A stretch of DNA of 64,000 bases, from the NCBI GenBank assembly GCA_046350855.1, contig JAXLZM010000001.1, forward strand, positions 153,420-217,419, given 5' to 3'. Of this stretch, positions 29,993-63,592 are shown piece by piece. Each line of letters opens with the position of its first letter. Position 1 is the first letter of the stretch. Source of the DNA: Candidatus Anderseniibacteriota bacterium. GTDB lineage: Bacteria > Patescibacteriota > JAUYIX01. The notes beneath the pieces are model-generated. The model saw only the letters and a program-made list of their open reading frames with translations, was not told where the DNA came from and ran no database searches. The position numbers were made by a program, and so were the translations under genes.

Positions 29993-30081
29993 GCGCGTAC
30001 GATAGCAAATGGACAGATAGCTGTCAGCCGCACTCGAGCACTGAGATTGCGTACCTGGCGCTGCAGGGGTAGAGTCGCGGT

Positions 30082-30516
30082 ATGTTTTTTGGGGTGCATT
30101 TATTGACGGGCGCGGCGATCGGTGCGGTCGTACCAGACCTCCCGGCCGCAACCGGCCTGGGCCTGCTCTCACATTACGCCATCGACCATCTCCCCCACTG
30201 GAACTACCTCCCCAAGCACCGCAGCAAGTGGGAAGATAGCTGGAAAATGGCCCTCGAGCCGCTCATTAGTATTCCGGTTTTTTTGGGGCTGGCCTGGTGG
30301 GCCCACTGGGACGCTCATATTTTAGTCCCGGCTTTTGCCGCGATTATCCCCGACTTGCTCGAGTCCGCCCAGTATTTTTTGCGCTCGCGGGTACTCAACT
30401 GGCACTCGCGTTGGCACCACTTTGGTCACTGGCACGCCCGCTTTACAGCCAGCCTACCTATCTTGATTAGCCTGCTCCTACTCGTCGGTTGGTTGCTGCC
30501 CTGGGGCCACCGCTAG
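30082..30516 (+). CDS. His/Trp-rich integral membrane protein
   Basis: Four TM segments; HxxxxH-rich. Confidence 0.45.
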   Translation: MFFGVHLLTGAAIGAVVPDLPAATGLGLLSHYAIDHLPHWNYLPKHRSKWEDSWKMALEPLISIPVFLGLAWWAHWDAHILVPAFAAIIPDLLESAQYFLRSRVLNWHSRWHHFGHWHARFTASLPILISLLLLVGWLLPWGHR

Positions 30517-43359: not shown

Positions 43360-45162
43360 CTACATCTCGTGGGGCGCGTGGATCCCAAGCAAGGCCAAGC
43401 CGTTTTGGAGGACTTGGGCGGTGGCCTGACAGAGTGCTAGACGGGCTGTGCGCTGCTCCTCGGTCGCTTTAAGCACTGGCACCTTTTGATAAAACAGGTT
43501 GAACCGGCTGGCTAGTTCAAATAGTTCTGTGGCGAGCAAATGCGGCATACGACGCTGGGCCGCCTCGGCCACGACCTCGGGGTAGCGCACTAAGCGACGA
43601 GCGAGCAGTTGTTCGACAGGGTCATTGGTAACGGCGTCCTTTGCGGTAGCTGGGCCGGGCGGTTGGGCTGACTGCGCCTTACGCACAATACTCTTAATCC
43701 GGGCGTGGGTGTACTGGAGGTAGGGCGCAGAGTTACCCTCGAGCGAGAGCATCCGATCAAAATCAAAGTCGATGGTGTGCAAACGGTTCTGCGAGAGATC
43801 GTTATACTTAACCGCACCGATACCAACTTGGCGCGCGATTACGTCTTTGTTTTTGAGGGCAGGGTTTTTGCTGGCAATGACTTTTTGAGCGCGCTCGATT
43901 GCCTCTTCTAAAATTTCTAACATGTCTGCCACGCGGCCCGCGCGCGTGCTCATTTTTTTGCCCTGCATGCGATAGAGCCCATGACCAATGTGCTCAAGGC
44001 TGTTGGCCCACGTAAATCCGAGCAAATGCAACACCGTAAAGACTTGCCTAAAGTGGAGCTCTTGCTCTAGTCCAACCTCATAGAGCATGGCGCTAAACTG
44101 GTATTTTTTTTGACGAGCAATCGCGGCCGCTAACTCACGCGTGGCATAGAGACTGGCCTCGTCGGTTTTTTGTACAAGGAGTGGCGGTAATTTTTGTGAC
44201 TCAAGGTCAACGATCGTCGCACCTTGGCTCTTTTTGAGCAGACCTTTTTTAGCAAGTAGCTCCATAACCGTCTTGAGATCGCCACGGTACTGGGCTTCGC
44301 CCTCGTCGATACGATCAAAGGGCGTCTCGAGTAAAGCGTAGATTTTTTTGGCGTGCGCCAGCGAGACGTCTACAAAACGTTGCCACAAGCCCAGCGCTTC
44401 TCTGTCACCTTGTTCTAGTTTACGGAACCAAGCACGCGCTTCTTGGGCCAGGGAATCGTCTTTGGCGAGTTCATCATGAAATCTAACATAGACACGCATG
44501 AGTTCTGTAATAGGGCTCTTCTTGAGCGCTGTCTCGTCCCCCCACTTTTTAAATCCCGCGATCAATTTGCCAAACTGGGTGCCCCAGTCACCCAAATAAT
44601 TGAGGCGGACCGTTGTGTACCCGACCGCTTCAAGCAAGCTCGCGATGGCCGCACCGTTAACGGTCGAACGTAGATGCCCAATGCTAAAGGGCTTGCCAAT
44701 GTTGACGCCCGAGTACTCGACCACGATCGTTTGGTTTTTTGCCTTGCCTGTGGCATCGGTCAAAGGTCGTGTACCAAACTTGTCGCCGCGTTGGTTAATA
44801 TGGGCGACCAGATGAGTCAAAAAAGGTTGAGAGAGCGAGAAGTTAATAAACGGACCCGTAGCTTCGATCTTCTCAAAGAGCGCGACGGCTGTACCTTTGT
44901 AGCCGCAGGCATCGACCGACATCTTTTTTACGACAGCACGGATGACCGGGACTAGTTCTGCCGCAATGTCAGCGGGCTTTTTTTTGAGCTGCTTAGCCAA
45001 CATAAAGGCAACGGGACTGGCGTAATCAGCGTGGGCTTCGAGGGGGTGTTCAACCGGAATGGCCACAGGAGCAGGGCCCTCGCTCGCAAGCGGCGCTTTG
45101 TACTGCTTGAGCGCCTCATCGAGGATTTGGGCAATGGCTTGTTTGAGATCGATTTGTGCCAT
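43360..45162 (-). CDS. argS: Arginyl-tRNA synthetase
   Basis: Class I core and DALR anticodon-binding domain; 600 aa. Confidence 0.9.
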   Translation of the reverse strand: MAQIDLKQAIAQILDEALKQYKAPLASEGPAPVAIPVEHPLEAHADYASPVAFMLAKQLKKKPADIAAELVPVIRAVVKKMSVDACGYKGTAVALFEKIEATGPFINFSLSQPFLTHLVAHINQRGDKFGTRPLTDATGKAKNQTIVVEYSGVNIGKPFSIGHLRSTVNGAAIASLLEAVGYTTVRLNYLGDWGTQFGKLIAGFKKWGDETALKKSPITELMRVYVRFHDELAKDDSLAQEARAWFRKLEQGDREALGLWQRFVDVSLAHAKKIYALLETPFDRIDEGEAQYRGDLKTVMELLAKKGLLKKSQGATIVDLESQKLPPLLVQKTDEASLYATRELAAAIARQKKYQFSAMLYEVGLEQELHFRQVFTVLHLLGFTWANSLEHIGHGLYRMQGKKMSTRAGRVADMLEILEEAIERAQKVIASKNPALKNKDVIARQVGIGAVKYNDLSQNRLHTIDFDFDRMLSLEGNSAPYLQYTHARIKSIVRKAQSAQPPGPATAKDAVTNDPVEQLLARRLVRYPEVVAEAAQRRMPHLLATELFELASRFNLFYQKVPVLKATEEQRTARLALCQATAQVLQNGLALLGIHAPHEM

Positions 45163-45647
45163 ATACGGTACGTCCTATACTAGCCGACGGAACCCAAATG
45201 TCGATATACGCCACCAACAAACGCGCACGAGCGGACTATCAGCTGCACGATACCTTTGTAGCGGGCATTAAGTTGAGCGGAGCCGAGGTTAAGTCCGTCA
45301 AAAAAGGCGGCATGCGACTCCTGGGCGCCTACGTCACGCTCCACAACGGACAGGCCAGTTTGGTCAACGCGCACATCGCCGCCTACAAGCCCGCGGGTCC
45401 GCAACCTGACTATGACCCGACTCGCAGCCGTCCCCTCCTGCTCAAACGCTCGGAGCTGCGCACTATCGTCGGCCAGCTGAACCAAAAAGGATTGACCCTA
45501 GTGCCCTTGCGTGCTATAGGTGTGCGGAACTTGATCAAGATTGAGTTCGCGGTTGGGCGCGGCAAGCGTCAGTACGAAAAACGCGACGTCCTGCGTAAGC
45601 GCGAAGCGGATCGCACCATTAATCGGGCCCTACGACGACGCCGCTAA
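45156..45647 (+). CDS. smpB: SsrA-binding protein SmpB
   Basis: SmpB fold with C-terminal basic tail KREADRTINRALRRRR. Confidence 0.9.
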   Translation: MPYTVRPILADGTQMSIYATNKRARADYQLHDTFVAGIKLSGAEVKSVKKGGMRLLGAYVTLHNGQASLVNAHIAAYKPAGPQPDYDPTRSRPLLLKRSELRTIVGQLNQKGLTLVPLRAIGVRNLIKIEFAVGRGKRQYEKRDVLRKREADRTINRALRRRR

Positions 45648-45780: not shown

Positions 45781-46176
45781 GGGGATGATCGGCTTCGAGA
45801 GCGATCGTGTGTTGTTCGGGCGTGTACGAGTGGGATGTGCCACTCGCAAATCAATCGCATCACTCAACAAATGCTAAGTCATTTGTAAGCAAAGCGAGCG
45901 ACTACGTTCGTAGCCTCTCCGCTCTGCCAGCCGTTGCCTAACTGTAGGTAACAGCCATCTCCCGTAGGCTCCCCCGTGGTTTACGATCAGAGGTGTTATC
46001 TTTGCGGGGTTGGTGTACAGCAGGTTTCTGGCTGAACATCGAGACTTTGTGAAACTCGCGTCGCCATTTTTTGCCGCACTTTGAGCGGTGACGTCAGATA
46101 CCAAGCGCGGAGAGTACACGTGGACGACCAACATGCTGTTAGCTCCACGCGGGTTCGATTCCCGCCATCTCCACCC
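45781..46176 (+). ncRNA. ssrA: tmRNA (SsrA), standard one-piece form
   Basis: 5' GGGGAUGAUCGGCUUCGAGAGCGAU matches the tmRNA 5' consensus. 3' ACGCGGGUUCGAUUCCCGCCAUCUCCACC is a tRNA-like T-arm and acceptor. A G3:U70 pair is present. Putative tag ORF ends ...ALPAVA-UAA near 45945. Confidence 0.85.
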
Positions 46177-46878: not shown

Positions 46879-48228
46879 CTATTGGCTAAGGCCAAATTCG
46901 AGCACAACAACCCCGAGCTTCTCCTTTGTTTGGGGATAAATCTGTTTGAGCAGAGAAAGAACATCCTGTTGAGAACGTGCGTCTGGCACAATACGCTCCC
47001 AGGGCTCTACGATGAGCATCTCTTCGAAAGTTGGGTAACGTCGAATATCAGTGACCTTCACAAAAAAGTTACTCGTGTGGGTCACAAGTTGAATACGTTC
47101 TCCAACCTGAATTCGGTTGATCGTATCGTAACCAACTCGGACCTCAAGGTTCTTCTTACCTGAACGAATCAAATTAAAGAACCTTTCCTTAACTCGCATG
47201 TTTCTCATGGTGGTTTCTCCAATATCCATGCTCCACTGTTGGGTAATGACCTGCGGATGATAGGCTGCGGGCATTGCCGCATCCAACCTCCAGCCCAGAC
47301 GTTGCAATGAAGCCACTTCTTCAACAGTAGGGTTAATGTGAATGTACAACTTGTGACCGTAGGGCACCAGCTGATGGGGTACGTCGATGAGCAAGGCCTC
47401 GAACACCATGATGTTGGTAGCAATAAAAGGCATAACTTTGATAGGACTGCCCTTCTTTGGAGTAGCACCGGCAACACCAGTCACGTTTCCGTCACTGTCG
47501 CTAGCAACAAATATGAGCTTGTACTTGGTGTTGATGTCGAAGCTCTCGCGCCGACTATAGCCGTCGAACAGGGCTTGAACCCACTCGGTCGTGATGCCTT
47601 CGAATGAGCCCTGCAGCTTTTGAAGCAGTAGTTTACTAACCTGTCCCTTCACTAACTCGTTCGTTTCGTCTAGTGCCAAGACGGAGACATGAGGGCGGTC
47701 CAAGGACAGTAGCTCGTTGAGTCCATAGAGCGGCTTGTAAAGCATTGTCTCCGTAATACCGCTCTTGTAATGACTTTCGGATCTTCCTGCCCGAATAAAG
47801 GCCTTGCGAAGGAAAAACTGCAGAGCTGCAACATTCTGTTCCGCGACAGTGCAGTAAAGCTGTCGGGCTTCATGCTGCCTTGCATATTCTTCCGCATGCT
47901 CCAGCAATCTGCTACCGACACCGAGCTTACCCTGAAATTCTTGTGCAACAATTAGGGGACTGATCTTATACGTAGACTGCCTCTTCCCTACAACATGGAT
48001 CATGCCCGCAGCTTTTTCTCCAACCTCCGCAATGAACATTCTCTGTTCAAAAGAAAAAAAGCCAAGATGGTCCGTGCCACCTGTTATATGGGCCTGAAAG
48101 ATGCGTTTTGCATGAGCTCTATGGTCACCTCCATAATATGGTTCGAGTGCGTTTTGCATCAATTTTTCAACCCACTCAAAATCTCCAGTACGTGCTTCCC
48201 GAATTATGATGCCTTCGTTGCCAGCCAT
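46879..48228 (-). CDS. GNAT acetyltransferase(x2)-ASCH fusion protein
   Basis: Strong RBS AAGGAGA before the Met at 48228 (ORF track starts at 48282). GNAT motif A QGKLGVGSRLLEHAE; second GNAT-like middle domain; C-terminal ASCH-like domain (FFNLIRSGKKNLEVRVGYDTINRIQVGERIQL). Confidence 0.7.
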   Translation of the reverse strand: MAGNEGIIIREARTGDFEWVEKLMQNALEPYYGGDHRAHAKRIFQAHITGGTDHLGFFSFEQRMFIAEVGEKAAGMIHVVGKRQSTYKISPLIVAQEFQGKLGVGSRLLEHAEEYARQHEARQLYCTVAEQNVAALQFFLRKAFIRAGRSESHYKSGITETMLYKPLYGLNELLSLDRPHVSVLALDETNELVKGQVSKLLLQKLQGSFEGITTEWVQALFDGYSRRESFDINTKYKLIFVASDSDGNVTGVAGATPKKGSPIKVMPFIATNIMVFEALLIDVPHQLVPYGHKLYIHINPTVEEVASLQRLGWRLDAAMPAAYHPQVITQQWSMDIGETTMRNMRVKERFFNLIRSGKKNLEVRVGYDTINRIQVGERIQLVTHTSNFFVKVTDIRRYPTFEEMLIVEPWERIVPDARSQQDVLSLLKQIYPQTKEKLGVVVLEFGLSQ

Positions 48229-48528
48229 CTTGATCTCCTTGCTGAACCACTGCCGCAAGTGAATGCGGCATGCGTAGTCCAAGGTGTTTGTTGTTAACGA
48301 ACCATCCCATCACACACGTTCCAAGCCGTTTCTGGAACGTTCCTCTATAACATTCTTGGAACTCGACGTCAATCAAGGTGCAGCTATTAAAAAACTAGTC
48401 CGATCCTCAGATCTCCCCTGCTAAAGGGTTTTCTTTTGTACAGTTGTGTTCTGCCAAAGAGCCTGTAATACTAGTCGACTAGGCATCTTGGAGTGCACCT
48501 TGTCATCGATCGTTTACGGAGGTGAAAC

Positions 48529-49071: not shown

Positions 49072-50439
49072 ATGAGGGTCAGGGCCTGTGGTAGTCTCTT
49101 GCTACCTATGCGCACTACTTCCCGTAAGCAGGCTTCTCGTGCAGGTAGCACCATCGCCCTGGTCCTCTCGGCTATCGCCCTGACGGCCTCACTATGTATG
49201 GTTCAGACTAATGCGGTGACGGCGCTGGGGGTGATCCAGTTTGGACACGGTTGGTACAAGGCGGGGGGTCAAACGGGTGCGGATGTGATCGGGGGTGACA
49301 TCGGCGACGAGTCGATCCCCGACGTGGCGCTACGACCCAATGGACAACCCTGCGCAGCTTTTATGAGTGCGAGTGGCTCCGGCGCCGCAGATATTTTGGT
49401 CGGGTGCTTTAACGGCTCGATTTGGACGGGACCGGATAACGGCAATGGCTATAGCAACATTAGCAACTCCCCCTTTGCTAGTGAGAACCCCGACATCGCC
49501 ATCGCCCCAGATGGTACGCTCTATGTGGCTTGGCTGGAGAGCACTAAAGCAGGCCCAATTCCCGATCGAGAGGTTCGGTTGGTCTTTTTTGACGGAACGA
49601 ACTGGAGCGGTTTTACCGGTCCCTATGACGTCGTGAGTCAAGGCTTAAGCGCCGGTACCTCAATAACTTTGGCGATAAACCCAATCGATGGTCATCCGGC
49701 CGTGGCCTGGAACTCAAAATATCAAGAGAGCGTGCTGTACCGGGAGTGGAACGGTCTCACCTGGAAAGGCCGAACCGGCAGCTACGACAAGATCAACGGT
49801 ACCCAGGATAAAACGGTTAACGCGCTAGAGCTCTCGCTCGCCATGGGCAGCAACCAGGCGCCGAGCGTGCTCTGGACCAACTACGATGGTGGCGGCTACG
49901 GCGAGATTCTGTTTCGCCGTTGGGATGGCAGCAAGTGGCGCGGCTACGTCTCGACTAACTCCGATAACTTGAGTTTGACGCCGCTTAAGAGCGAACATCA
50001 AGCACGCTTAGCACTCTTTAACGACGGCCGACCTGCGGTCACCTGGGAGGATGCCACGGTCAATGAGCAGGTGCGCTATCTCGAGTGGAGTGGCGCGATG
50101 TGGCGCGGACATGGGGGTGCCACGGCGGACACGGTACAGAGTGGCAGTAATGGCGCCTCGCCGACACTGGCAATCAACCCGGTAACCAATGCCCCCGTGA
50201 TTAGCTATCTGTTTTTTAGCGGGAGTGCTAACCAGATGTACGTTACCCAGTGGAACGGCGGCTGGGTTGGGCTAGCCAGCACACCACAAACGCAAGTCGA
50301 TCTTAAGGACGCCTCGCTCAACAACGCCCACTACCAGCAAGCCGCCCTGGATGCCACCGGCCACGTGCACCTGGTCTGGTACTACACTCAGCAAATCCCG
50401 GTGGCGAGTCTCAACGTGGCTTACACGCGTTGGAAATAG
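49072..50439 (+). CDS. Secreted protein with six repeats of about 52 aa carrying [FW]-[ND]-G-x-x-W-x-G (putative 6-bladed beta-propeller)
   Basis: Signal peptide from the Met at 49108 (MRTTSRKQASRAGSTIALVLSAIALTASLCMVQTNA). Repeats CFNGSIWTG, FFDGTNWSG, EWNGLTWKG, RWDGSKWRG, EWSGAMWRG, QWNGGWVG. Confidence 0.65.
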   Translation: MRVRACGSLLLPMRTTSRKQASRAGSTIALVLSAIALTASLCMVQTNAVTALGVIQFGHGWYKAGGQTGADVIGGDIGDESIPDVALRPNGQPCAAFMSASGSGAADILVGCFNGSIWTGPDNGNGYSNISNSPFASENPDIAIAPDGTLYVAWLESTKAGPIPDREVRLVFFDGTNWSGFTGPYDVVSQGLSAGTSITLAINPIDGHPAVAWNSKYQESVLYREWNGLTWKGRTGSYDKINGTQDKTVNALELSLAMGSNQAPSVLWTNYDGGGYGEILFRRWDGSKWRGYVSTNSDNLSLTPLKSEHQARLALFNDGRPAVTWEDATVNEQVRYLEWSGAMWRGHGGATADTVQSGSNGASPTLAINPVTNAPVISYLFFSGSANQMYVTQWNGGWVGLASTPQTQVDLKDASLNNAHYQQAALDATGHVHLVWYYTQQIPVASLNVAYTRWK

Positions 50440-50458: not shown

Positions 50459-51259
50459 TTAGGGGAGCGGTTCACCCAAAGTAACCCGGGCCTGGTAGGC
50501 GTTTTTGAGTTCGTCCCCGTAAAAGACTTGGTAGCCTTTGCGTTTGTAGCCCAACACTGTAATTGGAGCAAAGGGTTTACAACCGGAGGGAGTTGGTCCG
50601 GAGCAGACTTGCTGGTCGTTTTCGGCTAACAGCGCCGCCCAGCGAATCACGATCGGATCAGTGCTTGCATCACAGGTCGAGTTGTCGAGGGTCGCAAAAA
50701 TTTGCCAGGGCATTCCGGCGCTAACCTTGACCGAGTTGCAGGTCTGGTCACCCTGTGTGACGGTAACCTCACTCGGACCTTGCCAGGAGACGCCCAAGTC
50801 GATCGTGCGATACCAGCGCTCGACCGCCGGGGTCGGTTTGAGGATCACTCGACCATAAATTTTTTCTAAAAAGCGCACCGGGCCAGTGGGATCGTCCGCG
50901 TTGTAGACCGCCCGGGCCGAGACTTCTTTACTGCCGCTCAAAACAGCTTGTTCTTCTGCACTAAACGGGATGGTTTTAACTTGGCACATCCCAAACGGAT
51001 CGCACACCACCATCTGATCCATGCCTAAGCCCGGTGAGAGTTTTTGGATGGTGACCGCATCCGGCTGAACATAGTTTTGTTTAATCAGCATGTCGCTGGA
51101 CTGGGTAGTGACCGGGTTAGTTTGCGAGGCGTTGGAGGACGTTGTAGCACCAGAGCTAACGATTGTACCGGTCTGCGCTCGCCGAGAGAGCCAAAAGCCG
51201 AGTGCGCCTACAATGATCGCGACTCCGACTACAGAGAGCACTAGCCAAAGCTTTTTCAT
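50459..51259 (-). CDS. Membrane-anchored secreted protein, paralog B of the tandem pair
   Basis: Starts at MKKLWLVLSVVGVAIIV (the ORF-track upstream extension to 51562 is unlikely). Shares ERWY, VCDxxGxCQV and GYQV motifs with 51337..52188. Confidence 0.6.
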   Translation of the reverse strand: MKKLWLVLSVVGVAIIVGALGFWLSRRAQTGTIVSSGATTSSNASQTNPVTTQSSDMLIKQNYVQPDAVTIQKLSPGLGMDQMVVCDPFGMCQVKTIPFSAEEQAVLSGSKEVSARAVYNADDPTGPVRFLEKIYGRVILKPTPAVERWYRTIDLGVSWQGPSEVTVTQGDQTCNSVKVSAGMPWQIFATLDNSTCDASTDPIVIRWAALLAENDQQVCSGPTPSGCKPFAPITVLGYKRKGYQVFYGDELKNAYQARVTLGEPLP

Positions 51260-51288
51260 GGAAGTGTGCTCATGATAGCGAAAGTCGT

Positions 51289-51330
51289 CCCAAAAGAAAA
51301 AAGACCGTTCCCCTCCAGAGAAACGGTCTT
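51289..51330 (-). terminator. Strong intrinsic terminator between the tandem paralogs
   Basis: 9-bp stem AAGACCGTT/AACGGTCTT followed on the minus strand by TTTTTTCTTTT. Confidence 0.7.
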
Positions 51331-51336
51331 GTTGTA

Positions 51337-52188
51337 CTACGGCACGGGCGTGCAAAGCGGAACTTTGGTGCTGAGGAGCGATTCTCCCTGCATCACCTGA
51401 TAACCGCTCCGCTCTTCGTGCAAGATGAGCATTGGCGCAGTCGGACCAAGCGTAGCGCTCACGAGACCCGGGGTTCCATCCTGTGCGCTCGTGGTGCACT
51501 CGTTGTCGATGAGTGTCACCGCAAAACGCGAGGTGTAAAAAGCACCCGGGATCGGATCGCACGTGGTGTGATCCAACGTCATCCCCGCCTGCATTGAGAT
51601 CGTGTCATCGACTTGATCATAGATGCACTTTTTGGGCAGGGTGAAGAGTTCTCTGGGTGAGTCCCACGAGTGGCCACCGAGAGCAGTGTTGTACCAACGC
51701 TCCATGGTATCCACTTCTTGACTCAAAACCCTAAAGTACCCCTTGGTCCACATCTGGGCACCAGCCGGAGTATCGATCCAGACTAGCCTAACGGAGTACT
51801 TGGGCGCACCCTGTTGCCCCGTAGCAATAGCAGATTCGGTCGCGTCGTAGGGGCAGTAGACCACCTGGCAACTGCCTAGGTCATCACAGACGAGCATCTG
51901 TTCTCCCGTCAAAAAAACGACGGGCTGCGTCTGGGTAGCCCAGGCTGGCTCGGTCGGTCCGCCGACGTGTACGGTCGCGTACGTCTCACCATCTGAGACG
52001 ACCCGCAGGTTAGCGAGTAGATCGGAGGAGTGCCGATAGACGACACTCTCGCGACCCGTCGGTTTACCGGGGCCGTTGTCCGCAGCTGGGTCGAAGTTGA
52101 ACTCGACCCAGGAGAAGTCGGCCGCCTGCGAGCGACCGAGGCATGTACATGCACAGAGGACGCCGATCAAGACGGCTTGCTTCTTCAT
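51337..52188 (-). CDS. Secreted protein, paralog A of the tandem pair
   Basis: GGGGAGG RBS; signal peptide MKKQAVLIGVLCACTCLGRSQA; motifs shared with paralog B. Confidence 0.65.
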   Translation of the reverse strand: MKKQAVLIGVLCACTCLGRSQAADFSWVEFNFDPAADNGPGKPTGRESVVYRHSSDLLANLRVVSDGETYATVHVGGPTEPAWATQTQPVVFLTGEQMLVCDDLGSCQVVYCPYDATESAIATGQQGAPKYSVRLVWIDTPAGAQMWTKGYFRVLSQEVDTMERWYNTALGGHSWDSPRELFTLPKKCIYDQVDDTISMQAGMTLDHTTCDPIPGAFYTSRFAVTLIDNECTTSAQDGTPGLVSATLGPTAPMLILHEERSGYQVMQGESLLSTKVPLCTPVP

Positions 52189-52298
52189 GAAAGGAACCTC
52201 CCCTAAAAGGATGGCCCGTTTGTACCAGATTTTTTATTACCTGTCAAGTCGGCCAGCACACGTACTTGGCACAAATCCGTTATGTCAGCGTGAATAGT

Positions 52299-54416
52299 TT
52301 ACCCGCGAAAACTAAAGAGGTTGAGGAGGTGCTCACGGAGACTTTGCCGACCGCTGCCGCTCGAGGCAGGGCTGCGGGTCTCGGTTTGCGGAGTGGCTTG
52401 GCCCGTACTTGAGTCGACCACGAGCCAGTCAAAGACCACATCCTCGCTTGGAGCGTTGAGGAGTTCGACCGTAAAGCCATGCGTGGATACACTTGTGACT
52501 TTGTAGGTAGCAAAACTATGCGGAGTGAGTAGGACGTGCGGCGCACTGGCGTAGTTGCTGCTAAAGGTTACACTCGCCTTGGTCTGACCTTTTTTAACCG
52601 TGACGCTGCCGGCCGTGTCGCGCCCGACCGTAAGATGCCCGTTAATGGTCATGGCCCCCGCTACACGCGCATCGCCATCGACTACCAAGCTACCGGCCTG
52701 GATCTGACCTGAGACCTCGAGCGTGTTGGTGCTGATATGGTCGGCAAGTTCTTTGGTAAATGCTTTGAGCTCGGCCTGGTTACTCGCGGCAGAACCACTC
52801 TCCAAACTCAGACCGGGCAGCTCTTCCCCTTGGGTAACTCCGATTTGGCCAGCCTTATCGACGACGAGCGCGCCGCGCTGCGGCTGGAGTAAGACCATAA
52901 CGGTCTGATCAGCGTCAGAGCCCGCTCCGGAGGCCGAGAGGGCGATTCCGATCACGTTGTCAGCCGCCGCAGCGCGGCGCGCCTGACCAGCTTTGCTGGA
53001 TGGACCCACATAGTCCCCCACCTTGACCGGGCCGTTCTCGTCACTAAAGCGCACCGGAACTTGTCCGACTAAAGCTACCAAGGCGTCGTGCACGGTCTGA
53101 TCGGCAGGGTCGTTTTGGTTGGGGTTGTTACCGATAAAGGCCGGATTAGTCGAGACTACGCCGATCGCCAGATCCTCGGGTGCGCTGGACTTGCGCACAG
53201 CGTGTTCGGCCGAAGTATCCAACGTCACCAGGTCGCCTGGCAGGAGATCTGATTCGCTGGTGGTCATGTACTCAGCAAAGTCAGCGCCGGCCCCTGAGTA
53301 GGCTGCGTCCGCAAAGGTGCCACCCGTCGAGCTCACGCGCCAGACCCCGTTGTCGGTGCCATCCACGTCGGTGTTAAAAGCCATAAAGTTAAAGGTGTCG
53401 ACCGTCTCAGAGTTGGTGTTGATCTGCAGCAAGGCCGAGCGCTCACCACCGATCGTGAGCGGCTGCGTCAACGAGTTGTTGGTGGCATAAATGCGCATCG
53501 GACCGCCCGTTTGGTAGCTCGTGTCATTGTCCGCAAACTGCACATCGATGGCATGGTGGGCCGCGCCGGTGCCGCTGTCATCGATAACCAGCGAATTAGC
53601 GTTACCGTTTTGATCGATTGAGAGGGCCTCAGCGTCGGAGCTATTGACCACCACATTGATCGCACTAAAGTCGCCGTTTTGCGTAACAGAGATTGCGCTG
53701 GTATCGCGGTTGTTAAGGACCCGCACACCGTTGCCCAAGGTAGGGCCCGCGCTCAAATTGATATCGATACCGCTGCCGGAGGAACCCGTATGGTCAACAT
53801 CGATCGCATTGCCCTCGTCAGTTTGATCGATCTCGATACCGTTGGCCTCGAGGGCCTGGTTGACCTGTAGAGCAGGACCGGGGTCGGTTACTACGGTTGA
53901 TTTAGAAATCACCACGGACGGCAGCAAGTTGGCGCTGTTATTAAATGTAGTTACGCCATCGTCGCCAAAGGTAGCAAAGGTTGCGCCGCTATTTTGCAGC
54001 ACAAAATCGTTGGTACTGGTCAGATCAAACACCAGACCACCCTGGCCCTGTGCGTTGTCGATCGTCACCCGGGCTGGTGTCACAAAATTGTTGTAGGTGT
54101 CGTCCATATCGATGGTCGAGACGTCGCCGTCCGCACCCTGCGGTCCGGTTGGCCCGATCGGACCCGTCGGTCCAGCCGGTCCTGTCGCTCCCGTCGTACC
54201 AGAAGCACCAGCCGCTCCGGTGGCACCCGTCCCACCCGCTGTTCCAGCCGCACCCGTTGTGCCTGTTGCTCCCGTTCCTCCCGTCGAACCCGTCCCACCC
54301 GTGGTTCCACCAGTAGTACCACCGGTCGTACCGGTCCCACTTTGAGGTGCACAGATGTAGGTCTTACCGTCCGGTCCGGTCAACACGGTCCCCGGTTGTA
54401 CAAAATCCTTACCCAA
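52299..54416 (-). CDS. Collagen-like (Gly-X-Y) repeat fiber protein with phage tail-fiber/appendage-like C-terminal region
   Basis: TTG start; about 75 residues of G-T-G/G-A-T/G-P-T triplets; Ser/Thr/Asn/Gly-rich beta-helix-like body; ADFAEYM...PGDLV segment resembling the Peptidase_G2 IMC autoproteolysis motif (identified from memory). Confidence 0.7.
54115..54350. repeat. Low-complexity 9-bp-periodic GC-rich DNA encoding the collagen-like triplets
   Basis: Repetitive GGT CCn GTC / GGn ACn GGn codon runs; generates spurious ORFs on several frames. Confidence 0.7.
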
Positions 54417-54783
54417 ATAGGCCGAGATGTCCCCGACCTGCGAGAGTTTGAGTGCTTGATCCTCCAGAGCGTCGCGTAAACCTTGTTCACTGGCGTACGC
54501 AATTGGTAGTTATCGTACGCCGCACGCGCCAAAGAGCGCTAACAAGAGCAACCTAGGCCGATAAAAAGATGCATGCGGCGAGAGCAGTGCTCGTGCCGAT
54601 CCTGCCAGGCCGAGAGGGTTTTCGCTGACGAGCTCGGTAGTCTCCCCAGGCTGACCAACTGGAATGTTTTGTCCAGTCGGACGGGTCAGGGGTGGACGGC
54701 CGGGTGAGACGGGCGAACCAGGGATCGGAACGTCGCTAGCTGAGCTCGAGGGGAAGGGTTGGTCGGGCATAGAGAAGTTCTAC

Positions 54784-55797
54784 CTAGTATAGCGCAGCTG
54801 GATTATGCTGCCCATCCGCAGCCTGGCCGGGCTGCATGCCAATGGGACGGGTCACGGTGCCAAAGCGCTGCCGGATCACAAAGGGGTTGCCGCGATAGGG
54901 TTGGTAGCTCGAGCGGTCGGCAAACAGCCTAAAGGTGTTGCTGCCTACGATAAAGCTGTACTGGCCCCGTCGATCGGTGACGGCCGTCTCTAAAACACGG
55001 TTGAACTTAGTATCCAAAATGCGCACGACGGAATGCGGCAAGGGTTCGTTGGTGAGGGTGTCGGAGACGTTCCCCCAGGGACGACCGTAGGGTTTGTAGG
55101 TCAAGCGCTCAAAAAGGACAAAGAGTAGTAGGTGTCCTGCGAGCAGGGCCCAGGATTGCCAGTTCCAGGCAAAGACCGTGCAAATAGCACCCACGATGAT
55201 GCCAGTGTAGGCCAAGACTGAATGGAGGGTGCGCCGAGACTCACGACGCAAGGCTTGCTTGAGGGTGACGCGATCCTCCGGCCCGTCGATCGGTAGGTTG
55301 GCCTCGAGTGGACCTTTGGCGGCGTGCGCTACCACCCCTCCCGTGTAAATCGGTCCCACCGTAGTGTCGAACTTTTCGCCGGCAAGTAGGCGCGTCGGAA
55401 ACTCAAAGCCCGGTTTACTCACAAAAAAGCGGTAACGCCCCGCCGGCAAGAGAGCCAAAAAGCGCCCCTCTGCATCCGTGACGCGGGTGGCGACGATACG
55501 TTGGCGGTCGGCATCGATAATCCGTACGAGTGCGAGATCAATGGGACGCTTGCTCAAGCTCTCAAAAACTTGCCCGTAGCCCTTGCGTCGCCGACGCAGC
55601 AACAGCAATCCAGGCTGCGTAAAAATCTGCTGGAACAGCCGGCCGAGACTGGCCAACGGTACCGCGACAGCCAGGTTGACCGCAGCGACAAAGAGAGCAA
55701 GTGGGTTGAGTACATAGGTAAATAACCAGCCCAACGCAACCGCCGGGATCTCCGGCAAAATCGTGGTGGGACTGAGGAGGTGACAGACGGCGTTCAT
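54784..55797 (-). CDS. Membrane protein with two carboxypeptidase-regulatory-like (CarboxypepD_reg) beta-sandwich domains
   Basis: VRIIDADRQRIVATRVTDAEGRFLALLPAGRYRFFVSKPGF and VRILDTKFNRVLETAVTDRRGQYSFIV modules separated by TM helices. Confidence 0.55.
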   Translation of the reverse strand: MNAVCHLLSPTTILPEIPAVALGWLFTYVLNPLALFVAAVNLAVAVPLASLGRLFQQIFTQPGLLLLRRRRKGYGQVFESLSKRPIDLALVRIIDADRQRIVATRVTDAEGRFLALLPAGRYRFFVSKPGFEFPTRLLAGEKFDTTVGPIYTGGVVAHAAKGPLEANLPIDGPEDRVTLKQALRRESRRTLHSVLAYTGIIVGAICTVFAWNWQSWALLAGHLLLFVLFERLTYKPYGRPWGNVSDTLTNEPLPHSVVRILDTKFNRVLETAVTDRRGQYSFIVGSNTFRLFADRSSYQPYRGNPFVIRQRFGTVTRPIGMQPGQAADGQHNPAALY

Positions 55798-55917
55798 GAG
55801 AGAATGATTTCTATGCCTATTAAAAGCAAAAGCAGTATAAGAGCAATGAGCAGACCAGATCGCTCGCCACGCTTTGAGCGACACATTCCACCGCAACACA
55901 GCACTGGGTCACAGGTC

Positions 55918-56490
55918 TCAACCGACATGGCCGTTTTTTAGAGCGATTTGTGTGATTTTGCCGAGGTGTGCGACACGACGCACTGCCAGTGCGGAGACGA
56001 GCACTCCAATAAAAAAGACGAGGACGCCTGTCACTGCTAAATAAAAAGCGCCATTAATTGGGACCTGGGTTGCTAAACCACCCTGTTCAACCAGCCAAGT
56101 ACGGCCGGTCTCGACAATCAGTAGCGCAATAGCAAACCAAAGGCTGATCATTGCAAAAGCAGTAAGGTACCCCAGTCGGATCAAGTGGACGTGCGAAAAA
56201 AACGGCCGGAGTAGAAAATGAATCAGCATGATGGTAAAGGCACCGCCAAGACTGTAGACCAACCGACCGTAGAGATCGATCACTGGGAGGCTGGGTAAAA
56301 CCGTGTAGCTGACCGTGCGCAGACTGGGATAGTAATGCGGTAGGGCAACTCCTGCTTGTTGGATTAAAATATAGAGGACCGGTGCGGCGGTCACAAAAAC
56401 CGCAATCGAAGAGGTAAAGAGTGAACCTCGGTAGCTCTGTTTTTTGGTCAATTTGCTGGGCAAAGGCGGTGGAACAGGATGGTTACTCAT
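55918..56490 (-). CDS. Integral membrane protein
   Basis: Multi-TM ORF; internal start MSNHP avoids overlap. Confidence 0.45.
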   Translation of the reverse strand: MSNHPVPPPLPSKLTKKQSYRGSLFTSSIAVFVTAAPVLYILIQQAGVALPHYYPSLRTVSYTVLPSLPVIDLYGRLVYSLGGAFTIMLIHFLLRPFFSHVHLIRLGYLTAFAMISLWFAIALLIVETGRTWLVEQGGLATQVPINGAFYLAVTGVLVFFIGVLVSALAVRRVAHLGKITQIALKNGHVG

Positions 56491-56942
56491 GCGCGGCGTG
56501 CCTCCAAGATAAATGAAATCCCCATCGTGATAAACGTGCAAAAAGCGAGAGTGACAAAGAGCGCAGCAAAGAGCTGTCGTCGCCAGGTGGAGGCGTGACG
56601 AAGATGCCCAAAGACGATCAAAACCAAAAGGGGCAAAGCGATACAGATGCCAAGGGCGGTCAGGTGCTCCTTAAAGGCAAATAAGGCGGCACTACTTGGT
56701 GTTTTTTCGAGCGTACTCCGCAAAAACACACTAAAATGGGGGTACAAAAGGGTTCCAAAACCAAAGCTGGCTAGGTATAAAAGCGTCGCCGCAAAGCCGG
56801 CGAGCTGAATGTGTTTCCAATTGTGTGCTGAGACCGCCAGTAAAAAGATCAACCCCATCACAAAGGCAACAAACATACCGAGCGCTGCAATGCCGTGCAG
56901 GGTTCCCGCAAGATCGTACCAGCCATCCGCAAAAGGAATCAT
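56487..56942 (-). CDS. His-containing integral membrane protein
   Basis: ATGA start/stop overlap with the upstream gene; four TM helices with conserved His. Confidence 0.5.
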   Translation of the reverse strand: MIPFADGWYDLAGTLHGIAALGMFVAFVMGLIFLLAVSAHNWKHIQLAGFAATLLYLASFGFGTLLYPHFSVFLRSTLEKTPSSAALFAFKEHLTALGICIALPLLVLIVFGHLRHASTWRRQLFAALFVTLAFCTFITMGISFILEARRA

Positions 56943-57196
56943 GAACGCGCCATGATCGAGATAATGATATGCACCAAAACCAGTAGAATGGTGAGCCAGG
57001 CAAAAAGTTTGTGTGCTGCCGTAAATTGAAACCACCCATAGCTATCTTTTTGGTCGCGTCCGGGTCGTCCCCCGCGCCAGGGCAAGCGGTTGCGTGCCCA
57101 CGGCATCACAAAACAGGTCGTAAAGTTAAGTACGAGCGCAAGGGCCGCTAGCCGACCGCTCCACAGGGTAAGTTCATGGAGGAGCTTGGTACTCAT
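56939..57196 (-). CDS. Small integral membrane protein (two His 14 residues apart in a TM helix)
   Basis: GGAGAA RBS; AAHKLFAWLTILLVLVHII. Confidence 0.5.
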   Translation of the reverse strand: MSTKLLHELTLWSGRLAALALVLNFTTCFVMPWARNRLPWRGGRPGRDQKDSYGWFQFTAAHKLFAWLTILLVLVHIIISIMARS

Positions 57197-61745: not shown

Positions 61746-63592
61746 ATGAAGCTCATCTGGCACTACCTTAAGCAATACAAATGGATGGTCTTTGGTGGGC
61801 TGGTGTTGGGCGCGGTCAGCGACGCTCTCTACCTGGCAGATCCGCAGATTTTTTAGGATCCTGGTCGATAAATACGCCCGACACATCGATACGCTCACGC
61901 GCCATGAATTTTAATGGGCATTATCGGTCTCTCAGCCATCGGTATCGGTGTGGCTCTGGTCGCACGCATCACTCAAAACATTCAGGAGTACTACGTCAGT
62001 GTGGTGACGCAGCGCGTGAGCAGCGCCATGTACGCCAAGGGTATCTCGCACGCGCTCGCCATCCCCTACAGCGTGCATGAGGACCGCAGCTCGGGTTCAC
62101 TCTTGGGGTTACTTCAAAAAGCCCGCACGGACGTCCAGGCCTTTGTCACAGGTGGTGAACATCCTGTTCTCGGCCACGGTCAACATCACCTTTGTGATCG
62201 CCTACGCCTACACGCGCAGCGCCCTGCTCGGCACGATCTACCTGCTCATCATCCCGACCATCGGGACGATTACCTTTATCATCAATCGCCGGATCAAAGC
62301 CTCGCAGGCCGCCATCGTGCGGCAGCTCAGCGAGCTCGCGGGCTCCACCACCGAGACCCTCCGCAACGTCGAACTCGCCTTGAAGAGCCTCGGCCTCGAA
62401 GAACAGAGATGGACCGCCTCAACCACGACAACAACGCCATCCTCGACCTTGAGATCAAAAAGGCCCGCTTGATCCGCACACTCAGTTTTTCCAGGGCACG
62501 ATCCTCAACACCATCCGCGCCTCCCTCGTCCTCCTGATGCTCTGGCTGGTCTACGTGCTTTTAGCCTTACCGTCGGCGAGCTCTTTTAGCTTTTTTGCCT
62601 ACACCTTTTATATCTTTGGCCCGCTCTCGCAGCTCAATCCCGTCTTTAGTCAATACCAGCAAGCTAAGGCCAGCGCAGATGAGGTGGGTAAATTGCTCAA
62701 AATTCCGGCAGAACCGAAACCGACGCAAGCCCACCACCTCGAGCGCGTTAAAGAGATCATTTTTGACCGGGTGAACTTTACCTACCGCTCCGGCAGCCAG
62801 CCCGCCGTAAAGAACATTTCACTCTCGGTCAAAGCGGGCGAGACCATCGCCTTTGTCGGGCCGTCGGGTTCTGGCAAAAGTACCCTGATCAAATTGCTGG
62901 TGCGGTTGTATCAACCCAAGGGCGGCAAGATCTTGGTCAACGGAGTTTCTGCGGACCAACTCGATGTGGATGACTTTAAAGGGGAGATTGGCCTGGTGAC
63001 CCAAGAGACGCAGCTCTTTGCCGGCACGATCCGCGACAACTTACGCTTTGTAAACCTCAAAGCGACCCAAAAGCAAATGCATGCGGCGCTACGGCAGGCC
63101 CCTCCCTCCTCGATCTCTTAGAGCGGGGCGACAAGGAGACTCGATACTAAAATCGGCGAGGGCGGGCTCAAACTCTCTGGCGGAGAACGCCAGCGTCTGT
63201 CGATCGCGCGTGCGCTGTTACGCAATCCATCCCTGCTGATTTTTGACGAAGCTACCAGCAGCCTCGACTCCATCACCGAGCACGCCATCACGCGCACCAT
63301 CCGGGAGCTCGAAACCAGCAAGCAAGGCGGTATGGGCGACGTGATTACGATCCTTGTCGCGCATCGCCTCTCGACCATCGCGCATGCCCAACGCATTTAC
63401 GTGTTAGAGCGCGGTGCAATTATTGAGTCTGGCTCACACCAGGACCTTCTCAAAAAAGCCGGCCTCTATGCCGCCCTCTGGCGCGAGCAAGCAGGCCTCG
63501 GTAGACGTGGGCTCCAAAGCTTAAGCAGGCGGTTCAGCCCTTGTGGACAAACCCTTTACAAGCCCCAGATCGGCGTATACTTAGAGCTGTGA
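61746..63592 (+). pseudogene. Type I ABC exporter (fused TMD-NBD, MsbA-like), disrupted by at least five frameshifts
   Basis: Order-preserving fragments in three frames: MKLIWHYLKQYKWMVFGG (61746-61856), TMD helices, Walker A GPSGSGKST (about 62860), signature LSGGERQRLSIARALL (about 63175), H-loop VAHRLSTI (about 63355). Confidence 0.7.

What the first reader, a model, noticed from the sequence alone, without database searches (positions are those of the whole stretch)
50459..54416. Minus-strand operon: collagen-like tail-fiber-like protein followed by two tandem paralogous secreted proteins
A 705-aa protein opens with about 25 uninterrupted Gly-X-Y triplets ([32 protein letters not shown]...[11 protein letters not shown]). 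It continues with a long Ser/Thr/Asn/Gly-rich beta-helix-like body and contains ADFAEYM...PGDLVTLD...AIGVVS, which resembles the autoproteolytic IMC motif of phage pre-neck appendage / tail-spike proteins (Peptidase_G2-like; recalled from memory, unverified). It has no signal peptide. Directly downstream are two paralogous genes with signal or anchor peptides and shared motifs (ERWY..., VCDxxGxCQV, GYQV..GE.L), separated by a strong terminator. The cluster looks like a phage-derived fiber co-opted for a cell-surface structure, or a prophage remnant, with dedicated partner proteins. For a reduced-genome bacterium it is a plausible host-attachment apparatus.
Basis: partly seen in the sequence, partly recalled or inferred. 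Interest (0 to 1): 0.7.

Follow-up and report, generated by a model that had tools for sequence, protein, structure and literature searches.

The report
Membrane-anchored collagen-like surface fibre cluster
A tiny-genome (Candidatus Andersenbacteria) bacterium carries a chromosomal gene cluster for a collagen-stalked fibre built from phage tail-spike parts, flanked by membrane proteins and two adhesin-fold proteins; it is probably a cell-surface appendage, not a prophage remnant.

Summary
The 705-aa ORF (52299-54416, minus strand) has 21 in-register Gly-X-Y triplets and a repeat body with an 11-14 residue period. Its DFAEY motif is identical to the first residues of the cleaved C-terminal fragment of phage phi29 gp12. 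Scanned alone, the C-terminal part passes the Pfam Peptidase_G2 threshold, and its model matches the gp12 autochaperone fold. A weak H-type-lectin-like domain follows.

The two downstream genes are true paralogs (33% identity, E 6e-24), separated by a 13-bp-stem terminator. They belong to a family with only 12 representatives among 1.84 billion proteins. Their predicted fold resembles Gram-positive pilin and adhesin domains.

The cluster is chromosomal. No phage gene was seen among the window ORFs scanned, and no close relative in IMG/VR. Synteny recurs in other Candidate Phyla Radiation (CPR) loci: two membrane proteins, a CarboxypepD_reg membrane protein, the fibre, then secreted proteins. 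So the unit extends to about 57035.

"No signal peptide" is misleading. All full-length homologs have a cytoplasmic tail plus a transmembrane anchor. Its remnants lie just upstream (54417-54770), broken by clustered frameshifts like those in two other genes of the window.

Best reading: a membrane-anchored trimeric surface fibre matured by autocleavage. A role in host attachment is inference. I rate it a new variant of a known kind.

The parts
56487..57035 (-). Polytopic membrane protein (182 aa, no Pfam family); first gene of the syntenic block.
   Evidence: No Pfam hit. A 43%-identical homolog sits in the same order upstream of the fibre in L013.
55918..56541 (-). Membrane protein (207 aa, no Pfam family); second gene of the syntenic block.
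   Evidence: No Pfam hit. A 44%-identical homolog sits in the same position in L013.
54784..55899 (-). Membrane protein with two CarboxypepD_reg (Ig-like) domains separated by a transmembrane hairpin. It is the conserved upstream neighbour of the fibre.
   Evidence: PF13620, 60.4 bits. Homologs lie directly upstream of fibre homologs in L009, L012 and L013 (51-65% identity). As the C-terminal part of larger proteins they also precede more distant fibres in L019, L020, L023, L032 and L061. In L010 the upstream gene carries a weak precomputed CarboxypepD_reg hit.
54786..54814 (-). Promoter-like site (TGGGCA-17-TATACT) just upstream of ATG 54770.
   Evidence: Consensus scan only.
54417..54770 (-). 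Disrupted 5' part of the fibre gene. It holds remnants of a cytoplasmic tail (RHEHxSRRxH), a transmembrane anchor and a YDNYQLR linker. It is currently read as a separate 86-aa ORF (54510-54770) that ends at an in-frame TAA.
   Evidence: Three-frame translation. tblastn with the P0001 N-terminus matches the fibre frame upstream of the TTG start (53% identity, E 4e-23). It also matches a shifted frame with an internal stop (39% identity, E 1e-6). Intact anchors are present in P0001, L010, L012 and L013. NCBI annotates the 86-aa ORF separately.
52299..54416 (-). Fibre ORF as called (705 aa, TTG start).
   Evidence: Homologs at 34-38% identity over about 600 aa occur in L008, L009/P0001, L010, L012 and L013.
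54120..54308 (-). Collagen-like stalk: 21 in-register Gly-X-Y triplets (aa 37-99), rich in Thr and Ala, with 5 Pro.
   Evidence: Direct count. Pfam Collagen is sub-threshold. PDB collagen, PHROG and Scl hits cover only this part.
53283..54119 (-). Body (aa 100-378). It has an N-terminal module (DDTYNNF...[14 protein letters not shown]) followed by about 10 short beta-strand repeats, one every 11-14 aa. A beta-solenoid or triple-beta-helix is likely.
   Evidence: Repeat pattern and composition. AlphaFold2 predicts periodic strands, but at low confidence. The N-terminal module is duplicated in longer homologs.
53268..53285 (-). A-D-F-A-E-Y (aa 378-383): predicted autocleavage site between A378 and D379, with D379 and E382 as the candidate catalytic pair.
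   Evidence: D, A and E are invariant in 6 homologs. The phi29 gp12 C-terminal fragment 3gqh_A begins DFAEYFES and aligns here.
52887..53360 (-). Peptidase_G2-type intramolecular chaperone domain (about aa 352-510).
   Evidence: PF11962, 32.2 bits against a cut-off of 25, at aa 352-431. Foldseek: 3suc E 1.7e-5; 3gqh_A target TM-score 0.60. Model pLDDT is 60-85 in this region.
52413..52625 (-). C-terminal beta-sandwich domain resembling an H-type lectin (aa 598-668).
   Evidence: PF09458 at 15.1 bits, below its cut-off of 24. Foldseek matches Helix agglutinins 4q56, 2cgy and 2ce6 with target TM-score about 0.5 and probability 1.0. pLDDT is 67-89. The domain is also present in P0004.
52302..52337 (-). 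Conserved extreme C-terminal peptide [12 protein letters not shown], which follows a Ser/Thr/Pro-rich linker.
   Evidence: Compare L012 (RSWLDRLFSFNG) and L010 (RTWLDHLF). A helix is predicted here, at low confidence.
51337..52188 (-). Paralog A: a secreted protein with a signal peptide. Its core (aa 89-283) is a beta-sandwich with the fold of pilin and MSCRAMM adhesin domains.
   Evidence: RBS AGGGGAGG lies upstream of the start.
51301..51330 (-). Intrinsic terminator between paralogs A and B.
   Evidence: 13-bp stem plus T-run. Folding energy -18.3 kcal/mol, z-score -2.35.
50459..51259 (-). Paralog B: same family as A, with an N-terminal transmembrane anchor instead of a cleavable signal peptide.
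49072..50439 (+). Convergent gene for a 455-aa secreted repeat protein. It is a possible distant homolog of the ~400-aa protein that follows the fibre in L010, L012 and L013. Its membership in the module is tentative.
   Evidence: hhalign probability 71%, E 3.6e-5 over 290 columns. No Pfam hit.

Best explanation
This is a chromosomal envelope gene cluster of a CPR bacterium (Candidatus Andersenbacteria). It encodes a trimeric surface fibre assembled the way phage tail spikes are.

**Proposed mechanism**
1. The full protein has a short cytoplasmic tail and one transmembrane anchor, oriented N-in and C-out. This step is inferred from homologs; in this assembly that part is broken by frameshifts.
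2. Outside the membrane come a 21-triplet collagen-like stalk (roughly 18 nm if it forms a triple helix, calculated from the usual rise per residue), a short-repeat beta-solenoid body, and a C-terminal cassette. The cassette is a phi29-gp12-type intramolecular chaperone (Peptidase_G2) plus an H-lectin-like domain.
3. The C-terminal cassette trimerises first. It nucleates folding of the body and the collagen stalk from the C-terminal end towards the N-terminal end.
4. The chain then cuts itself between A378 and D379, using D379 and E382 of the DFAEY motif. This leaves a membrane-anchored stalk and head and releases the cassette.

**Partners.** The CarboxypepD_reg membrane protein and the two small membrane proteins upstream are co-inherited with the fibre. 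So are the adhesin-fold paralogs downstream, one secreted and one membrane-anchored. They probably form or decorate the same surface structure. The most likely role is adhesion to a host cell or a surface.

**Shown:** domain identities, motif identity, paralogy, synteny and the chromosomal context.

**Inferred:** trimerisation, cleavage, topology, any interaction between the partners, and the adhesion function.
For: **Domains and motif**
- PF11962 scores above its threshold on the C-terminal fragment and on homologs P0001 and P0002.
- The DFAEY motif is identical to the start of the cleaved phi29 gp12 fragment 3gqh_A.
- The D, A and E positions are invariant across 6 homologs.
- Fold matches to 3suc and 3gqh, and to H-type lectins.
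- 21 in-register Gly-X-Y triplets.
- Short-period strand repeats in the body.

**Membrane anchor**
- An N-terminal cytoplasmic motif plus transmembrane anchor is present in P0001, L010, L012 and L013.
- Remnants of it lie upstream of the window ORF.

**Synteny**
- CarboxypepD_reg membrane gene then fibre in L009, L010, L012 and L013. The same pairing recurs in more distant loci L019, L020, L023, L032 and L061.
- Fibre then paralog-family gene in L008, L010 and L012.
- The 182-aa and 207-aa membrane-protein genes are in the same order in L013.

**Cellular rather than viral**
- Housekeeping genes surround the cluster.
- The organism name comes from the NCBI record.
- Related loci carry CPR names: Andersenbacteria, Parcubacteria group and Peribacteria MAGs.
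- IMG/VR holds only two loci, with G2-domain-only similarity.

**Cassette modularity**
- The G2 plus lectin-like cassette is shared by proteins whose N-terminal bodies are unrelated, such as P0004. That fits a chaperone role better than a receptor-binding tip.

**Paralogs**
Against: - The fibre model is poor overall (mean pLDDT 49.7). The body fold and the trimeric state are therefore not established.
- The Pfam G2 match covers only profile positions 20-99 of 228.
- Autocleavage has not been observed. phi29 gp12 matures in the cytoplasm, whereas this ectodomain would have to mature outside the cell.
- If cleavage removes the lectin-like domain, the mature fibre has no recognisable binding domain.
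- In this assembly the anchor-coding region is broken. The gene as sequenced would give an unanchored, non-exported protein, so it may be decaying in this genome.
- A physical or functional link between the fibre and the paralogs rests only on gene neighbourhood in 4 loci.
- A strong terminator separates paralogs A and B.
- By the positive-inside rule, applied by my own reading of the sequence, the CarboxypepD_reg domains may face the cytoplasm. That leaves the role of this protein unclear.
Confidence: 0.65

Rival explanations
1. It is a prophage or tailocin remnant: a phage tail-fibre or tail-spike gene with its accessory genes, left behind in the chromosome.
For: - The Peptidase_G2 autochaperone is best known from phage phi29 gp12.
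- PHROG tail-fibre families hit the protein.
- The tmRNA gene, a common integration site by general knowledge, lies about 4 kb away.
Against: - The PHROG hits cover only the collagen-like segment.
- The neighbours scanned are aminoacyl-tRNA synthetases, ribonucleotide reductase, a GNAT protein and membrane proteins. No capsid, portal, terminase or integrase was seen. Not every ORF of the window was scanned.
- There is no repeat of the ssrA 3' end, and GC content does not deviate.
- Homologs carry an N-terminal transmembrane anchor, which a virion fibre would not have.
- The same membrane-protein neighbours recur in several CPR genomes whose wider flanks differ.
- IMG/VR has no close relative.
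Confidence: 0.07
2. In this genome the fibre gene is a decaying pseudogene. The membrane anchor has been lost through frameshifts and a stop, so no functional surface fibre is made here.
For: - An in-frame TAA and frame changes lie between ATG 54770 and TTG 54416.
- The TTG start has no convincing ribosome-binding site.
- NCBI annotates the 86-aa ORF as a separate gene.
- Mfd and an ABC transporter in the same window are also fragmented. This could reflect ongoing gene decay in a reduced genome.
Against: - The remaining 705 codons are intact, and the domains are conserved at 34-38% identity to homologs.
- Four compensating +1 and -1 shifts within about 170 bp restore a complete anchor and return to the original frame (my reconstruction). 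This pattern, repeated in Mfd and the ABC gene, looks more like local consensus errors than independent mutations.
- The partner genes are all intact.
- An independent assembly (L007) shows no indels over 7.5 kb, but it does not reach this region.
Confidence: 0.2
3. It is an uncleaved lectin-tipped adhesin. The G2-like domain serves only as a trimerisation module, and the C-terminal H-lectin-like domain stays at the distal tip to bind host glycans.
For: - An H-lectin-like fold lies at the C-terminus.
- The extreme C-terminal peptide is conserved.
- In an N-anchored fibre the C-terminus is the distal end, which is where a binding domain would be expected.
Against: - The DFAEY cleavage and catalytic motif is strictly conserved and identical to that of phi29 gp12.
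- The G2 plus lectin-like cassette is conserved across proteins whose bodies differ (P0004). That is the pattern expected of a chaperone rather than a fast-evolving receptor-binding tip.
- The lectin assignment is below the Pfam threshold.
Confidence: 0.15

Closest known systems
Bacteriophage phi29 pre-neck appendage (tail spike) gp12; MEROPS family G2 / Pfam PF11962
   Same: - A C-terminal intramolecular chaperone domain with the same DFAEY motif at the point where gp12 is cut.
- A matching fold for that domain (3gqh_A, target TM-score 0.60; 3suc, E 1.7e-5).
- A repetitive beta-rich body N-terminal to it.
   Different: - This protein is cellular, not a virion protein.
- Its homologs have an N-terminal membrane anchor.
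- It has a collagen-like stalk.
- It carries an extra linker of about 90 aa and a lectin-like domain after the chaperone.
- The body shows no detectable sequence similarity to the gp12 beta-helix.
- Maturation would have to happen outside the cytoplasm.
Bacterial collagen-like surface proteins (Bacillus BclA, Streptococcus Scl1/Scl2, Legionella Lcl)
   Same: - A Gly-X-Y stalk rich in Thr that projects a globular part from the cell surface.
- A C-terminal trimerisation domain nucleates the triple helix (the BclA principle, from general knowledge).
- Weak NCBIfam and PDB hits over the collagen part only.
   Different: - Scores are far below the family cut-offs (26.6 against 325 bits).
- There is no LPXTG sorting signal and no C1q-like head.
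- Anchoring is by an N-terminal transmembrane helix.
- The C-terminal domain is a self-cleaving phage-type chaperone.
MYRF and endosialidase-type (Peptidase_S74) membrane-tethered self-cleaving trimers
   Same: The logic is shared. A cellular, membrane-bound protein uses a phage tail-spike triple-beta-helix plus an intramolecular chaperone to trimerise and cut itself (PMC3742443, PMC8326128).
   Different: - The chaperone family is different: G2 with an Asp/Glu motif here, against S74 with a Ser/Lys dyad.
- Pfam S74 was not hit.
- The orientation and the fate of the fragments differ.
Gram-positive pilins and MSCRAMM adhesins (EbpB, BcpA, LrpA, ACE)
   Different: - Sequence identity is 5-9%.
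- There is no LPXTG motif; the C-terminus ends in LGxPLP.
- It is a single domain with conserved cysteines.
- No Pfam, NCBIfam or significant PHROG hit.
- The family has only 12 representatives among 1.84 billion proteins.

Membership tests
Peptidase_G2 / phi29 gp12-type intramolecular chaperone (PF11962, MEROPS G2) | A profile match above the curated threshold. | tested here: met
   The C-terminal 366 aa scored 32.2 bits against a cut-off of 25 (E 9e-8), though only over profile positions 20-99 of 228. The full-length protein gave no hit. Homologs P0001 (35.0 bits) and P0002 (25.5 bits) also pass.
Peptidase_G2 / phi29 gp12-type intramolecular chaperone (PF11962, MEROPS G2) | An Asp...Glu motif (D-x-x-E) at the cleavage site. 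| tested here: met
   DFAEY lies at aa 379-383. The cleaved gp12 fragment 3gqh_A starts DFAEYFES and aligns to it. D, A and E are invariant in 6 homologs. That D and E are the catalytic residues is from my memory of Xiang et al. 2009; the paper is not held in the library.
Peptidase_G2 / phi29 gp12-type intramolecular chaperone (PF11962, MEROPS G2) | The fold of the autochaperone domain. | tested here: met
   Foldseek: 3gqh_A target TM-score 0.60 over 177 columns; 3suc E 1.7e-5. Local pLDDT is 60-85.
Peptidase_G2 / phi29 gp12-type intramolecular chaperone (PF11962, MEROPS G2) | Trimer-dependent autocleavage and release of the C-terminal fragment. | not testable with these tools
   This needs protein biochemistry.
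Collagen triple-helix repeat (PF01391) | A long uninterrupted (Gly-X-Y)n run. | tested here: met
   21 in-register triplets at aa 37-99. The Pfam score is 18.8 bits, below the 27.2 cut-off. Pro is scarce (5 of 63 residues), as in other bacterial and phage collagen-like proteins.
Phage tail fibre or tail spike (virion protein) | Encoded within a phage structural module. | tested here: not met
   No phage genes were found among the neighbours scanned. IMG/VR holds only two loci, with G2-only similarity. PHROG hits are limited to the collagen part.
H-type lectin (PF09458) | A profile match above the threshold, and the fold. | tested here: inconclusive
   15.1 bits against a cut-off of 24. Foldseek matches 4q56, 2cgy and 2ce6 with target TM-score about 0.5 and probability 1.0. 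Sugar-binding residues were not examined.
Sortase-assembled pilins / MSCRAMM adhesins (for the paralogs) | A C-terminal LPXTG sorting signal followed by a hydrophobic segment and a charged tail. | tested here: not met
   Both paralogs, and 9 of their 10 relatives in the alignment, end at or just after a terminal [LVA]P dipeptide (consensus LGxPLP) with nothing further; P0015 alone adds 8 residues. None has LPXTG.
Sortase-assembled pilins / MSCRAMM adhesins (for the paralogs) | An Ig-like (CnaA/CnaB-type) domain fold. | tested here: met
LPXTG collagen-like adhesins Scl1/Scl2 and Lcl (NCBIfam) | An equivalog score above the cut-off. | tested here: not met
   Scores of 19.9-26.6 bits against cut-offs of 325-500 bits, over the collagen part only.

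The most novel reading that the evidence does not exclude
CPR bacteria possess a previously undescribed, lineage-restricted surface-appendage system. Its core is a family of N-terminally membrane-anchored trimeric fibres. These are folded and matured outside the cell by a self-cleaving phage-type (G2) chaperone cassette. A dedicated CarboxypepD_reg membrane protein is always encoded upstream, and lineage-specific adhesin-fold partners follow. The system would be the organelle by which these episymbionts attach to their hosts.
Probability: 0.3. Interest if true: 0.75.

Novelty: new variant of a known kind. Interest (0 to 1): 0.58.

Why it matters
How the very small, host-dependent CPR/Patescibacteria cells hold on to their partners is largely unknown outside the Saccharibacteria. 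This cluster gives a concrete, testable candidate.

- **Fibre.** It is membrane-anchored and collagen-stalked, and its assembly logic is borrowed from phage tail spikes.
- **Co-inherited partners.** They include a defined set of membrane proteins and a new, very small family of adhesin-fold proteins.
- **Wider pattern.** A Peptidase_G2 autochaperone would be working in a cellular, extracytoplasmic setting. This parallels the MYRF (Peptidase_S74) case in eukaryotes.
- **Conserved pairing.** The link between the CarboxypepD_reg membrane protein and G2 fibres holds across divergent loci. That suggests a wider system worth defining.

My searches of the open literature found no description of it.

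Tried and rejected
**Searches that gave little**
- Pfam on the full-length fibre found only sub-threshold Collagen and H_lectin. The G2 domain appeared only when the C-terminal part was scanned alone.
- NCBIfam, PHROGs and the PDB sequence search with the whole protein returned only collagen-driven hits.
- The word-indexed protein search retrieved only 5 and then 7 relatives. It missed L010, L012 and L013, probably because low-complexity words filled the 8000-candidate limit.
- The viral fold library gave nothing convincing for paralog A (target TM-scores up to about 0.3).

**Ideas tested and dropped**
- Prophage or ssrA-island origin. There is no repeat of the tmRNA 3' end. Only one 17-nt chance repeat lies in 45.7-58.5 kb. 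GC content does not deviate.
- Sortase pilin. There is no LPXTG motif.
- General indel noise in the assembly. An independent 7.5-kb assembly (L007) shows 15 mismatches and no gaps, so the frameshifts are local clusters.

**Tools and resources that were unavailable**
- The exact-sequence look-up did not find the fibre product, because NCBI uses another start.
- The paralog alignment could not seed a genome scan, as it has no sufficiently conserved stretch.
- The afdb50 fold library was unavailable.
- The phi29 gp12 structure paper (PMC2692858) is not held. Catalytic-residue details are therefore from memory.

Full report
**1. The observation**

- fibre 52299-54416 (705 aa, TTG start)
- paralog A 51337-52188 (283 aa)
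- paralog B 50459-51259 (266 aa, from the ATG at MKKLW)

The collagen-like stretch has 21 in-register Gly-X-Y triplets (aa 37-99), with a few more Gly-rich triplets upstream out of register. So "about 25" is slightly generous.

The body (aa 100-340) is 59% S, T, N, G, D or A. It carries about ten [AG][LIV]x[LIV] strand motifs, one every 11-14 residues.

A and B align at 33% identity over 199 residues, E 6e-24. Between them lies a 13-bp-stem terminator with a T-run (51330-51301; -18.3 kcal/mol).

**2. The fibre's domains**

A Pfam scan of the whole protein gave only sub-threshold Collagen and H_lectin. PHROG "tail fibre" hits, the PDB collagens and the Scl/Lcl models all cover only the collagen part.

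Scanned alone, the C-terminal 366 residues hit Peptidase_G2 (PF11962) at 32.2 bits against a cut-off of 25, at aa 352-431. The best homologs carry the same domain.

A profile of the family matches PDB 3gqh_A, the cleaved C-terminal fragment of phi29 gp12. Residue 1 of that chain (DFAEYFES...) aligns with the family's DFAEY. In the window protein this is D379-Y383. D, A and E are invariant among six homologs.

The AlphaFold2 model is poor overall (mean pLDDT 49.7). It is usable in two regions: the G2 region (pLDDT 60-85) and a C-terminal domain at aa 598-668 (pLDDT 67-89).

Foldseek against the PDB returns:
- pre-mature gp12 (3suc, E 1.7e-5)
- the gp12 C-terminal fragment (target TM-score 0.60)
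- Helix H-type lectins for the last domain (target TM-score about 0.5)

The lectin-like assignment stays tentative.

**3. The missing N-terminus**

Full-length homologs (P0001, L010, L012, L013) begin with three elements:
- a conserved cytoplasmic motif (RHE[HN]xSRRxH)
- one transmembrane helix
- a YENY/YDNW-LRxG linker, which precedes the [17 protein letters not shown] segment with which the window ORF starts

In the window, the 354 bases upstream of the TTG start encode these elements in pieces:
- The ATG at 54770 opens an 86-aa ORF in the same frame as the fibre, ending at a TAA.
- Beyond that stop, the same frame already aligns with P0001 (53% identity, E 4e-23).
- RHEHCSRRMHLFIGLG...[11 protein letters not shown] lies in a shifted frame with an internal stop (E 1e-6).

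Four compensating one-base shifts would restore a complete anchor (my reconstruction; hydropathy).

Two other genes in the window, Mfd and an ABC transporter, show the same clustered frame changes. An independent short contig (L007) has no indels against the window over 7.5 kb, but it stops before this region.

I therefore regard the break as most likely a local consensus artefact. Real decay is the alternative. NCBI annotates the 86-aa piece as a separate hypothetical protein.

**4. The paralogs**

They have no Pfam or NCBIfam family and no significant PHROG match.

An exhaustive profile search of 1.84 billion representative proteins found only 12 members. Members share:
- an N-terminal signal or anchor peptide
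- conserved cysteines (CDxxGxC, and C188 and C210 in paralog A numbering)
- a terminal LGxPLP

**5. Context and synteny**

The NCBI record names the organism a Candidatus Andersenbacteria MAG. The window carries IleRS, ArgRS, LeuRS, MetRS, topoisomerase I, RelA, ribonucleotide reductase and tmRNA. No phage genes were seen among the ORFs scanned. There is no att-like repeat of the ssrA end.

Fibre relatives in the genome scan came from CPR MAGs: Andersenbacteria (L012), Parcubacteria group (L013) and Peribacteria (L014).

Related loci repeat the gene order:

| Locus | Gene order |
|---|---|
| L013 | 182-aa membrane protein, 207-aa membrane protein, CarboxypepD_reg membrane protein, fibre |
| L012 | CarboxypepD_reg membrane protein, fibre, then a paralog-family gene further downstream |
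| L010 | gene with a weak CarboxypepD_reg hit, fibre, 411-aa secreted protein, paralog-family gene (P0013), 203-aa secreted protein; a second paralog-family gene (P0010) about 7 kb further on |
| L009 | CarboxypepD_reg membrane protein, fibre |
| L008 | fibre, paralog-family gene (P0007), then another signal-peptide ORF |

The window's convergent 455-aa gene (49072-50439) is a weak match to the ~400-aa protein that follows the fibre elsewhere (hhalign probability 71%).

More distant loci (L019, L020, L023, L032, L061) keep the pairing of a CarboxypepD_reg membrane protein with an N-anchored G2 fibre. Their fibres are 1400-2700 aa, carry DFAE[FY] and have no collagen-like run. In several loci a polytopic membrane protein with TPR repeats follows the fibre (L019, L020, L023, L027, L028, more weakly others). 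That protein is absent from the window.

IMG/VR contains only two loci, with G2-only similarity.

**6. Interpretation**

The most economical reading is a cellular, membrane-anchored, trimeric surface fibre. Its C-terminal cassette acts as an intramolecular chaperone and is cut off at A378|D379, as in phi29 gp12. The cassette (G2 plus the lectin-like domain) is shared by proteins with unrelated bodies, such as P0004. This favours a chaperone role over a receptor-binding tip.

The upstream membrane proteins and the downstream adhesin-fold proteins are co-inherited and probably belong to the same envelope structure. Adhesion to a host or a surface is the likeliest function for a CPR organism, but it is inference.

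Rival readings:
- **Prophage remnant:** contradicted by the context, the membrane anchor and the synteny.
- **Pseudogene in this genome:** open until reads are checked.
- **Uncleaved lectin-tipped adhesin:** less likely, given the strict conservation of the motif.

**7. Novelty**

Each building block is known: collagen-like bacterial surface proteins, the G2 autochaperone and Ig-like adhesin folds. Cellular reuse of tail-spike self-cleavage is also known, for MYRF with the S74 family (PMC3742443, PMC8326128).

The new elements are:
- the combination itself: a transmembrane anchor, a collagen stalk, a repeat body and a G2 cassette
- its fixed membrane-protein partner
- the tiny paralog family

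I found no description of it in the literature searched. I rate it a new variant of a known kind, of moderate to good interest. The functional claims remain to be tested.

Noticed in passing
window 6551-9495 (+): The transcription-repair coupling factor Mfd is fragmented. Its helicase motifs ([41 protein letters not shown]) lie in different reading frames within about 600 bp, so there are at least four frame changes.
   Followed up: partly
window 61914-63500 (+): An ABC transporter (membrane domain plus ATPase domain) is split across several reading frames in the same clustered manner.
   Followed up: partly
window 45781-46175 (+): The tmRNA has a long tag peptide, AKSFVSKASDYVRSLSALPAVA. The ORF just upstream (45156-45647) may be SmpB; this was not checked. 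The tmRNA 3' end is not duplicated downstream.
   Followed up: partly
window 27754-27841 and 28715-30172: tRNA-Tyr lies next to a class-I Trp/Tyr-type synthetase (485 aa). A paper (PMC5370408) that mentions Andersenbacteria reports archaeal-type Tyr/Trp identity in some CPR bacteria. The paper's passage on Andersenbacteria was not read.
   Followed up: no
window 35335-37113 (-): A 592-aa protein with DUF11 repeats, and weaker matches to other Ig-like domain families, is another probable surface protein. It sits among aminoacyl-tRNA synthetase genes.
   Followed up: no
window 46879-48282 (-): A fusion of a GNAT acetyltransferase with a C-terminal ASCH domain (467 aa).
   Followed up: no
L019, L020, L023, L027, L028 (e.g. 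L020:8415-10751): In more distant loci the N-anchored G2 fibre is followed by a conserved ~780-850-aa polytopic membrane protein. It has 8 or more transmembrane segments and C-terminal TPR repeats, and its membrane part has no Pfam family. It may be an assembly or glycosylation factor. It is absent from the window.
   Followed up: partly
window 52302-52337 (-); L012 and L010 fibre C-termini: The fibre ends in a conserved peptide after a Ser/Thr/Pro-rich linker: [12 protein letters not shown] in the window, RSWLDRLFSFNG in L012 and RTWLDHLF in L010. Its role is unknown; it may be a sorting or docking signal.
   Followed up: no
L012:16728-17535: The paralog-family gene of the Andersenbacteria STL-PAT3 MAG is split over two reading frames, so another MAG shows a frameshift in this module.
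   Followed up: no
L001-L006 (P0003): Marine (TARA) relatives of the G2 domain have a different N-terminus: a helix-turn-helix domain followed by a transmembrane segment. They sit in a chromosomal context beside large proteins, one with a faint bactofilin hit, and an SLH-domain protein.
   Followed up: no
window 52189-52298 (-): The intergenic region between the fibre and paralog A contains TTGACA-17-TACAAA, and a strong ribosome-binding site (AGGGGAGG) lies before paralog A. The paralogs may therefore have their own promoter.
   Followed up: no
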